Source of the DNA: Escherichia coli
Lineage (GTDB): Bacteria > Pseudomonadota > Gammaproteobacteria > Enterobacterales > Enterobacteriaceae
Direction: 5' to 3' (one strand)
Length of the DNA stretch: 64,000 nt
Assembly (NCBI RefSeq): GCF_044647545.1
Contig: NZ_CP172818.1
Position 1 is the stretch's first letter. The number at the start of each line of letters is the position of its first letter. Position numbers and translations under genes: made by a program. This document shows, one piece after another, positions 56,700-56,933 of the stretch. The notes beneath the pieces were generated by a model, which had not been told where the DNA came from, did no database searches, and worked only from the letters and a program-made list of their open reading frames with translations.

Positions 56700-56933
56700 T
56701 CACATCAATATTCCATCAGCACCAGACGCAACCTGATGTTTCTGCGCAAAATTATCCATATTCAGCGCCACGGAAACATTCAATAAGCTGTTCAGATACA
56801 CCATCGGCTGGCCTTCCGGCACATCGCCGAAGCTTGCGACATATGGCATTTTCCCTGCTATTTTTGCTGCGCAATCTTCGGAAATGGTCACACACAACGT
56901 GTCGTTGAGTTTGATTCCTGCCTGATTCAGCAA
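56700..56933 (-). CDS. orphan 77-aa ORF, unknown function
   Basis: ORF MLNQAGIKLNDTLCVTISEDCAAKIAGKMPYVASF... bordering the low-complexity block; no recognisable motif; could be spurious or a gene remnant. Confidence 0.2.
   Translation of the reverse strand: MLNQAGIKLNDTLCVTISEDCAAKIAGKMPYVASFGDVPEGQPMVYLNSLLNVSVALNMDNFAQKHQVASGADGILM

What the first reader, a model, noticed from the sequence alone, without database searches (positions are those of the whole stretch)
56700..56933. Orphan 77-aa ORF flanking the low-complexity block
A minus-strand ORF sits in otherwise normal sequence just left of the anomalous block. Its upstream side runs into the low-complexity region, so it may be the 3' remnant of a gene whose 5' part was overwritten, or simply a chance ORF. 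I do not recognise the protein.
Basis: seen in the sequence. Interest (0 to 1): 0.2.

Follow-up and report, generated by a model that had tools for sequence, protein, structure and literature searches.

The report
Damaged fragment of known SAM-hydrolase gene
The 77-codon reading frame is the still-readable tail of a well-known 300-codon E. coli accessory gene (a SAM hydrolase family enzyme) whose remainder has been scrambled by a sequence-quality defect in this window, so it is ordinary and not a new gene.

Summary
The minus-strand ORF at 56700..56933 exists. It is neither an orphan nor a chance ORF. It matches residues 218-290 (92% identity) of a 300-aa "SAM hydrolase/SAM-dependent halogenase family protein" (WP_000751631.1; Pfam SAM_HAT_N + SAM_HAT_C). 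That gene lies between uvrD and yigE in 2413 of 5426 complete E. coli genomes and is absent from K-12.

Both ORF ends are artefacts. The TTG "start" is an internal Leu codon. An upstream TAG comes from a private G>A at 56969. The TGA stop at 56700 comes from a private 1-nt deletion at 56715/56716; the true TAA is at 56683-56685.

The low-complexity block is the same gene, collinear with the intact allele (940 vs 953 nt). Identity falls gradually from the left to about 55-65% and returns abruptly to 100% at the yigE stop codon. The 2335 nt to the left show no differences from strain ECONIH1. The first 1958 nt to the right are also identical; the only 3 differences there lie near 59614-59619.

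The errors smear neighbouring bases into homopolymers and hit all three codon positions. None is shared with any of the 2413 genomes. Every other defect found in the window sits in sequence that K-12 lacks. The best reading is a technical corruption of a known gene. Interest is low.

The parts
54466..56628 (+). uvrD (DNA helicase II), intact. It is convergent with the damaged gene.
   Evidence: Annotation of ECONIH1 transferred by exact identity. Window 54381-56715 has 0 differences from NZ_CP009859.1.
56648..56668 (.). 8-bp inverted repeat (ATGCGGTG / CACCGCAT, loop CGCCA) between the two convergent stop codons. It is probably a shared terminator or REP-like hairpin, and it is intact.
   Evidence: Read directly. 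Identical in FDAARGOS_497. Function was not tested.
56683..57580 (-). Full extent of the SAM hydrolase/SAM-dependent halogenase family gene as it survives in the window: 898 nt against 903 nt in intact alleles. The true stop TAA is at 56683-56685. The start codon is destroyed. Every frame has at least 5 stops.
   Evidence: Alignment to L001/L005 CDS (WP_000751631.1). Pfam SAM_HAT_N (180.1 bits) and SAM_HAT_C (66.9 bits) on the intact allele.
56700..56933 (-). The reported 77-aa ORF. It corresponds to residues 218-290 of the 300-aa protein, lies within the C-terminal SAM_HAT_C domain, and has artefactual ends.
56715..56716 (.). Private 1-nt deletion: window CCA-TCAG against CCAGTCAG in relatives. 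It shifts the frame, so the ORF ends ...GADGILM* at the TGA at 56700-56702. The intact protein ends ...GADWNIDVKKCAK* at 56683.
56859..56875 (.). Private cluster of one deletion, one insertion and two substitutions. It turns ...SEGSQQKYAGK... into ...SEDCAAKIAGK...
   Evidence: Not present in any of 2413 genomes.
56968..56970 (-). In-frame TAG created by a private G>A at 56969 (Gln codon CAG in intact alleles). This is why the ORF can only begin at the internal TTG at 56931-56933.
56990..57654 (.). Low-complexity block. It is a degraded, collinear copy of the N-terminal two-thirds of the gene plus the 82-nt spacer to yigE. Identity to the intact allele is 54-84% per 50 nt. Composition is C 39% and G 15%. 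There are many homopolymer runs of 8-20 nt. It ends one base before the yigE stop codon.
57655..58419 (-). yigE (phosphodiester glycosidase family, Pfam NAGPA), intact. It lies upstream of the damaged gene on the same strand.

Best explanation
The ORF is the best-preserved piece of a known E. coli accessory gene. That gene encodes a 300-aa member of the SAM hydroxide adenosyltransferase / SAM hydrolase / halogenase family (formerly DUF62), and where present it lies between uvrD and yigE, downstream of yigE on the same strand. In this window the gene is present at full length, but its sequence has been corrupted by a technical process, not by evolution. Reading left to right on the + strand, errors begin 33 nt into the gene. 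They rise over about 300 nt to roughly 40% and stay there for about 650 nt. They stop abruptly at the yigE stop codon. The errors smear neighbouring bases into homopolymers and over-call C. Because the 3' third of the gene is only lightly damaged, a 77-codon frame survives, bounded by two error-made features: a frameshift-induced TGA and a substitution-made TAG. Shown here: the homology, the synteny, the collinearity, the error gradient, the clean flanks and the privacy of every difference. Inferred: the real organism carries an intact gene, and the fault arose in base-calling, consensus or assembly. One plausible source is reference-guided reconstruction on a K-12-like scaffold, because all defects found in the window lie in sequence that K-12 lacks or at junctions where the strain differs structurally from K-12. 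The enzyme that the intact gene encodes would, by family, hydrolyse S-adenosyl-L-methionine to adenosine and L-methionine. The 77-aa piece lacks the N-terminal domain with the conserved catalytic motifs and could not do this alone.
For: Identity of the ORF: Pfam SAM_HAT_C E=1.5e-10. BLASTP gives 92% identity to residues 218-290 of WP_000751631.1. The intact protein carries SAM_HAT_N plus SAM_HAT_C and matches solved SAM hydrolases, chlorinase and fluorinase down to E=1e-43. Synteny: the gene is annotated between uvrD and yigE in every gene-bearing genome row listed, and 2413 of 5426 genomes hold it at 80% coverage or more. Corruption: a single collinear megablast piece spans the whole 1501-nt query at 85% identity. 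Per-50-nt identity runs 1.0, 0.8-0.96, then 0.54-0.84, then 1.0. The left flank has 0 differences in 2335 nt. The right flank has 3 in 2084 nt, all at 59614-59619. Block composition is C 39%/G 15% against 25%/22% in the true sequence, with runs up to 20 nt. Wrong bases equal an adjacent reference base in 71% of cases against 50% +/- 3% in the null. Mismatches by codon position are 48/67/75. No genome shares any of the differences. The 77-aa sequence is absent from 15 billion proteins. Link to non-K-12 sequence: further defects lie at 16612-16616, 16948-16975 and 42951-43107, and a missing islet follows corA. All sit at structural differences from K-12, while 5140-15040 (0 differences), 30000-54000 (100.0%) and other checked stretches are perfect.
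Against: I could not identify the source record. An exact 50-mer from the block is not in 100,044 representative genomes, so no read depth or quality values could be inspected. The exact technical process is therefore unproven. A simple model in which each base is replaced by the local majority base of the true sequence fits worse (at most 59.5%) than the true sequence itself (65.7%). The excess of C is unexplained. The second large defect (42951-43107) is not collinear with the true sequence and is 436 nt too short, so one mechanism may not cover all defects. The missing islet after corA could be a real strain difference.
Confidence: 0.93

Rival explanations
1. The block is real DNA: a naturally decayed or hypermutated pseudogene of the SAM hydrolase gene, with the 77-aa ORF as its last open remnant.
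For: The gene is accessory and is lost outright in 56% of E. coli genomes, so selection on it is dispensable in some lineages. There is a weak excess of third-position changes (48/67/75, p=0.048).
Against: About 250 differences fall within 940 nt. The adjoining 2335 nt have none, and the first 1958 nt on the other side are also identical. No known mutational process gives G>C and T>C as the dominant changes on one strand together with homopolymer growth. Second codon positions are hit almost as often as third. No intermediate exists in 2413 genomes. Similar defects occur at four other unrelated sites, all in non-K-12 sequence.
Confidence: 0.02
2. The ORF is a chance open frame with no coding history.
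For: 77 codons is within the range of spurious ORFs in this GC-rich window. It has a TTG start and no evident ribosome-binding site.
Against: It is 92% identical over 73 residues to an annotated protein. Its Pfam domain hit is above the gathering score. It lies in the same position and orientation in 2413 genomes.
Confidence: 0.005
3. Foreign low-complexity DNA, such as a mobile or repeat element, inserted into or replaced the 5' part of the gene, leaving a true 3' remnant.
For: The right edge of the block is abrupt.
Against: The block is collinear with the gene, base for base, with near-equal length (940 vs 953 nt). It retains 54-84% identity throughout, including an 84% island at 57394-57443. 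No repeat, transposase or target duplication is present, and the block has no Rfam match.
Confidence: 0.01

Closest known systems
[quoted passage not shown] Examples are locus tags ECONIH1_RS22395 and EGY17_RS09275.
   Same: Same locus (uvrD / gene / yigE), same strand, and the same sequence wherever the window is readable. ORF residues 1-19 and 27-73 are identical to residues 218-236 and 244-290.
   Different: The window copy has lost its start codon, signal peptide, the whole N-terminal domain and its true stop through sequence corruption.
Characterised DUF62 SAM hydrolases. Examples: Pyrococcus horikoshii PH0463 (PDB 1wu8/2wr8), PDB 2zbu, Methanocaldococcus MJ1651 (PDB 2f4n/22uy), and the (R)-SAM-specific hydrolases of Salinispora tropica, Sulfolobus acidocaldarius and Haloferax volcanii.
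   Same: Same two-domain fold family. The intact E. coli protein aligns over residues 28-289 with E=1e-43 to 1e-33, and the vvDPGVGt.Rk and tFHGRD motifs are conserved. By family, these enzymes hydrolyse SAM to adenosine and methionine (PMC12120602; bioRxiv 10.1101/2025.08.29.672840; PMC4227530).
   Different: The E. coli protein scores far below the NCBIfam equivalog cut-offs for (R)-SAM hydrolase: 132 against 350 bits and 118 against 470 bits. It carries a 21-23 residue N-terminal extension that looks like a secretion signal and that the solved cytoplasmic enzymes lack. Its activity has not been tested, and no paper on it was found.
SAM-dependent halogenases: fluorinase FlA (PDB 1rqp) and chlorinase SalL (PDB 2q6i).
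   Same: Homologous fold, E=1e-35 to 1e-22.
   Different: Fluorinase equivalog TIGR04507 scores 84 bits against a 400-bit cut-off. There is no evidence for halogenase function.

Membership tests
SAM hydroxide adenosyltransferase / SAM hydrolase-halogenase family (DUF62; Pfam PF01887 + PF20257) | C-terminal domain PF20257 (SAM_HAT_C) matched above the gathering score | tested here: met
   The 77-aa ORF scores 41.7 bits against 25.5, covering profile positions 28-81 of 84. The intact allele scores 66.9 bits.
SAM hydroxide adenosyltransferase / SAM hydrolase-halogenase family (DUF62; Pfam PF01887 + PF20257) | N-terminal domain PF01887 (SAM_HAT_N) present in the same polypeptide | tested here: not met
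   In the window, the region that should encode it (about 57050-57500) has at least 5 stops in every frame. In the intact orthologue it is present at 180.1 bits. The failure is therefore a property of this corrupted copy, not of the gene.
SAM hydroxide adenosyltransferase / SAM hydrolase-halogenase family (DUF62; Pfam PF01887 + PF20257) | Conserved active-site motifs of the N-terminal domain. From my own knowledge of Deng et al., these are the Asp-Arg-His residues of PH0463, lying in vvDPGVG..R and FHGRD. | tested here: not met
   The motifs are conserved in the intact E. coli allele: residues about 89-99 (VVDPGVGTDRK) and 149-154 (TFHGRD) align with 2zbu. They lie inside the corrupted block and outside the 77-aa ORF. 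I could not retrieve the primary papers on the triad.
SAM hydroxide adenosyltransferase / SAM hydrolase-halogenase family (DUF62; Pfam PF01887 + PF20257) | Orthologous position (uvrD / gene / yigE) shared with annotated family members in E. coli | tested here: met
SAM hydroxide adenosyltransferase / SAM hydrolase-halogenase family (DUF62; Pfam PF01887 + PF20257) | Hydrolysis of SAM to adenosine and L-methionine | not testable with these tools
   Needs an enzyme assay on the intact protein.
(R)-S-adenosyl-L-methionine hydrolase equivalogs (NCBIfam NF058624, NF053629) | Whole-protein score at or above the curated equivalog cut-off | tested here: not met
   The intact allele scores 132.4 against 350 bits and 117.5 against 470 bits. 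The 77-aa ORF scores 17.4 bits.
Fluorinase (TIGR04507) | Whole-protein score at or above the curated cut-off | tested here: not met
   84.3 against 400 bits.
Independent small-protein gene (the 'orphan ORF' as such) | The same start and stop conserved in relatives, and the product called as its own protein elsewhere | tested here: not met
   In 2413 genomes the stretch is internal to a 903-nt CDS. The exact 77-aa sequence is absent from about 15 billion proteins. The start is an internal Leu codon, and the stop arises from a private frameshift.

The most novel reading that the evidence does not exclude
The homopolymer-rich block is real DNA in the source organism: an in-place, strand-biased hypermutation or homopolymerisation confined to accessory (non-K-12) segments, which leaves neighbouring core genes untouched. 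The 77-aa ORF would then be the last remnant of a gene destroyed by an unknown targeted process. A milder and more likely curiosity concerns only the intact allele. It carries an apparent secretion signal (MKKTLATLFLLTCLGSSSAYA|DN), which would place a SAM-hydrolase-fold enzyme in the periplasm, where SAM is not expected.
Probability: 0.02. Interest if true: 0.7.

Novelty: already known. Interest (0 to 1): 0.05.

Why it matters
It matters mainly as quality control. An annotator run on this window would call a false 77-aa 'hypothetical protein' and miss a known 300-aa gene. It would also misread at least four other defective spots. Flagging the block as corrupted sequence keeps a spurious orphan gene and a spurious 'pseudogene' out of downstream analyses. 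Biologically, the locus is a well-documented presence/absence polymorphism in E. coli: the gene is present in about 44% of complete genomes, including O157:H7 and ST648-type strains, and absent from K-12. The only open question of some interest is what an apparently exported DUF62-family enzyme does, and this window cannot address that.

Tried and rejected
(1) Exact search of a 50-mer from the block in 100,044 representative genomes gave 0 hits, so the source record and its read support could not be examined.

(2) I tested whether the block is a 'local majority' smoothing of the true sequence. Agreement peaks at 59.5% (+/-2 nt), below the 65.7% identity to the raw sequence, so that simple model is rejected. 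The weaker statement holds: wrong bases copy an adjacent true base in 71% of cases against 50% in the null.

(3) Natural divergence was rejected on flank identity, codon-position pattern and privacy of all differences.

(4) Foreign insertion was rejected on collinearity.

(5) The Rfam scan of 40000-64000 found only GlmZ, with nothing in the block. The promoter/terminator scan of 56500-57800 was at background.

(6) I tried to read the primary DUF62 papers (PMC2692205, PMC7736106) for the catalytic residues. They are not held, so the triad statement rests on my own knowledge plus motif conservation.

(7) Loci L003, L004 and L007 never appeared in the Python sandbox. I re-fetched smaller pieces instead. 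Window 1-5139, 24918-29999 and 62558-64000 were not compared base by base.

(8) I ran no further search on synteny outside E. coli, because the answer for this finding was already decided.

Full report
**Observation.** The ORF listing reports the ORF exactly as described: 56700..56933, minus strand, 77 aa, TTG start. Its length is unremarkable. The same 6 kb contains spurious ORFs of up to 220 aa antisense to uvrD. The question is therefore decided by homology and context.

**What the ORF is.** The window is E. coli chromosome. uvrD ends at 56628, and yigE (Pfam NAGPA) occupies 57655..58419 on the minus strand.

- A megablast of 56400-57900 against 5426 complete E. coli genomes hits 5425 of them.
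- In 1511 genomes a single collinear piece covers the whole query at 82-85% identity.
- In those genomes the annotated features under the match are uvrD, a 'SAM hydrolase/SAM-dependent halogenase family protein', and yigE.
- In strain FDAARGOS_497 that gene is a 903-nt minus-strand CDS (WP_000751631.1) between uvrD and yigE. Strain ECONIH1 has the same arrangement.
- The 77-aa ORF matches Pfam SAM_HAT_C at 41.7 bits against a 25.5-bit cut-off, E=1.5e-10.
- It aligns to residues 218-290 of the 300-aa protein with 67/73 identities.
- The intact protein has SAM_HAT_N (180 bits) and SAM_HAT_C (67 bits).
- The intact protein matches solved DUF62 SAM hydrolases, the chlorinase SalL and fluorinases at E=1e-43 to 1e-20.

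**Why the ORF has the ends it has.** The alignment to the intact allele explains both ends.

- The real stop codon (TAA) is at 56683-56685.
- The window lacks one G at 56715/56716. This shifts the frame, so the ORF ends ...GADGILM* at the TGA at 56700, whereas the intact protein ends ...GADWNIDVKKCAK*.
- Upstream, a G>A at 56969 converts a Gln codon into TAG. The first available start is then the internal Leu codon TTG at 56931-56933.
- A cluster of one deletion, one insertion and two substitutions at 56859-56875 rewrites seven residues inside the ORF.
- None of these changes is found in any of the 2413 genomes that carry the gene. The best identity over 56640-56995 is 97.2%.
- The exact 77-aa sequence is absent from a collection of about 15 billion proteins, while the intact 300-aa sequence is on at least 1000 contigs.

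**What the low-complexity block is.** It is the rest of the same gene plus the 82-nt spacer to yigE, not foreign DNA.

- The window stretch 56716-57654 is 940 nt and is collinear with 953 nt of the intact allele.
- Identity per 50 columns is 1.0 up to 56847, then 0.80-0.96 up to 56997, then 0.82, then 0.54-0.72. There is one island of 0.84 at 57394-57443.
- Identity returns to 1.0 from 57655, the first base of the yigE stop codon.
- Outside this stretch the window has 0 differences from ECONIH1 in 2335 nt on the left. It has 3 in 2084 nt on the right, all near 59614-59619 in corA.
- Within the block C rises from 25% to 39% and G falls from 22% to 15%. Homopolymer runs of 8-20 nt appear, against a single run of 7 in the true sequence.
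- The dominant substitutions are T>C, G>C and A>C.
- 71% of wrong bases equal the base immediately before or after in the true sequence, against 50% (sd 3%, maximum 62% in 1000 shuffles) expected.
- Mismatches hit codon positions 1/2/3 as 48/67/75. This is not the pattern of divergence under selection.
- The window version of the gene has at least 5 stops in every frame and no start codon.

**Technical or biological?** Natural decay cannot place about 250 changes in 940 nt next to error-free flanks. No intermediate exists in 2413 genomes.

Comparison with ECONIH1/FDAARGOS_497 and K-12 turned up four more irregularities:

- 4 nt are missing at 16612-16616 in the ilvC-ppiC spacer.
- 20 nt are lost and 1 gained at 16948-16975 in the ppiC-rep spacer.
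- 157 nt of junk, including a run of 55 A, lie at 42951-43107. They replace about 590 nt that hold a 196-aa hypothetical gene (WP_001260227.1) between GlmZ and hemY.
- A 1564-nt DUF943/YPO3983 islet after corA is absent.

Each of these lies exactly where the ECONIH1-type sequence differs structurally from K-12. The right edge of the SAM-hydrolase block is also the right edge of the segment that K-12-type genomes lack. Sequence shared with K-12 is perfect wherever it was checked:

- 5140-15040 has 0 differences.
- 15040-24917 has 0 mismatches apart from the two small sites above.
- 30000-54000 is 100.0% identical apart from the 42951-43107 break.

I therefore infer a technical origin tied to 'novel' sequence, for example a reference-guided consensus on a K-12-like scaffold or poorly supported gap-filling. 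This step is inference. The source record could not be found. A simple local-majority smoothing model did not fit. The islet after corA may be a genuine strain difference.

**The gene itself.** It is a presence/absence polymorphism.

- 2413 of 5426 complete genomes (44%) have it, always at 80% coverage or more and at 90-100% identity. These include O157:H7, O55:H7, the ST648 strain (NZ_CP008697.1) and UPEC F11.
- The other genomes, including K-12, have a 146-nt REP-bearing spacer instead.
- By family, DUF62 enzymes hydrolyse SAM to adenosine and methionine. Several are selective for the inactive (R)-sulfonium epimer. Their active sites lie at protomer interfaces of a trimer (PMC4227530; PMC12120602; bioRxiv 10.1101/2025.08.29.672840).
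- The conserved motifs vvDPGVGt.Rk and tFHGRD align with PDB 2zbu. They sit at residues about 89-99 and 149-154 of the E. coli protein, inside the corrupted block. The 77-aa piece could not be catalytic alone.
- The E. coli protein falls far below the NCBIfam equivalog cut-offs for (R)-SAM hydrolase and for fluorinase. Only family-level membership is justified.

**Verdict.** The ORF is a fragment of an already annotated gene, and its boundaries and the adjoining block are products of sequence corruption. Interest is 0.05; novelty is 'already known'.

Noticed in passing
window 42951-43107: A second corrupted stretch. About 157 nt of low-complexity sequence, ending in a run of 55 A (43030-43084), stands where close relatives have about 590 nt encoding a 196-aa hypothetical protein (WP_001260227.1) between GlmZ and hemY. 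It is not collinear with the true sequence. GlmZ (42722-42928) and the hairpin before hemY are intact. K-12 lacks this gene.
   Followed up: yes
window 16612-16616 and 16948-16975: Two small defects relative to ECONIH1: 4 nt lost in the ilvC-ppiC spacer, and 20 nt lost plus 1 gained in the ppiC-rep spacer. Both sit exactly where the ECONIH1-type sequence departs from K-12, which has a REP insertion at the first site and the yifN pseudogene at the second.
   Followed up: yes
window about 59593-59739 (corA 3' end): The window lacks a 1564-nt islet (DUF943 and YPO3983 family genes plus a 147-nt duplicate of the corA 3' end) that ECONIH1 carries between corA and yigF. The breakpoints lie in the 147-nt direct repeat, and 3 mismatches cluster at 59614-59619. 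This could be a real deletion or strain difference, or a repeat collapse in assembly.
   Followed up: partly
L005:2303-3205 (-), the intact allele in ECONIH1. The corresponding window region, about 57500-57580, is unreadable.: The intact E. coli protein begins MKKTLATLFLLTCLGSSSAYA|DN. This 21-23 residue extension is absent from the solved cytoplasmic homologues, which align from residue 24-28. It has the n/h/c layout and A-x-A site of a Sec signal peptide. An exported SAM-hydrolase-fold enzyme would be unexpected. Its upstream neighbour yigE also starts with a signal-like sequence. No paper on this was found.
   Followed up: partly
L006:529-676 and L007:2347-2492 (K-12-type uvrD-yigE spacer): In genomes without the gene, the 146-nt spacer holds REP/BIME-like palindromes (GCCGGATGCGGTGC...GCATCCGGCA). 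Homology between the two haplotypes ends at a REP-like hairpin after uvrD on one side and at the yigE stop codon on the other.
   Followed up: partly
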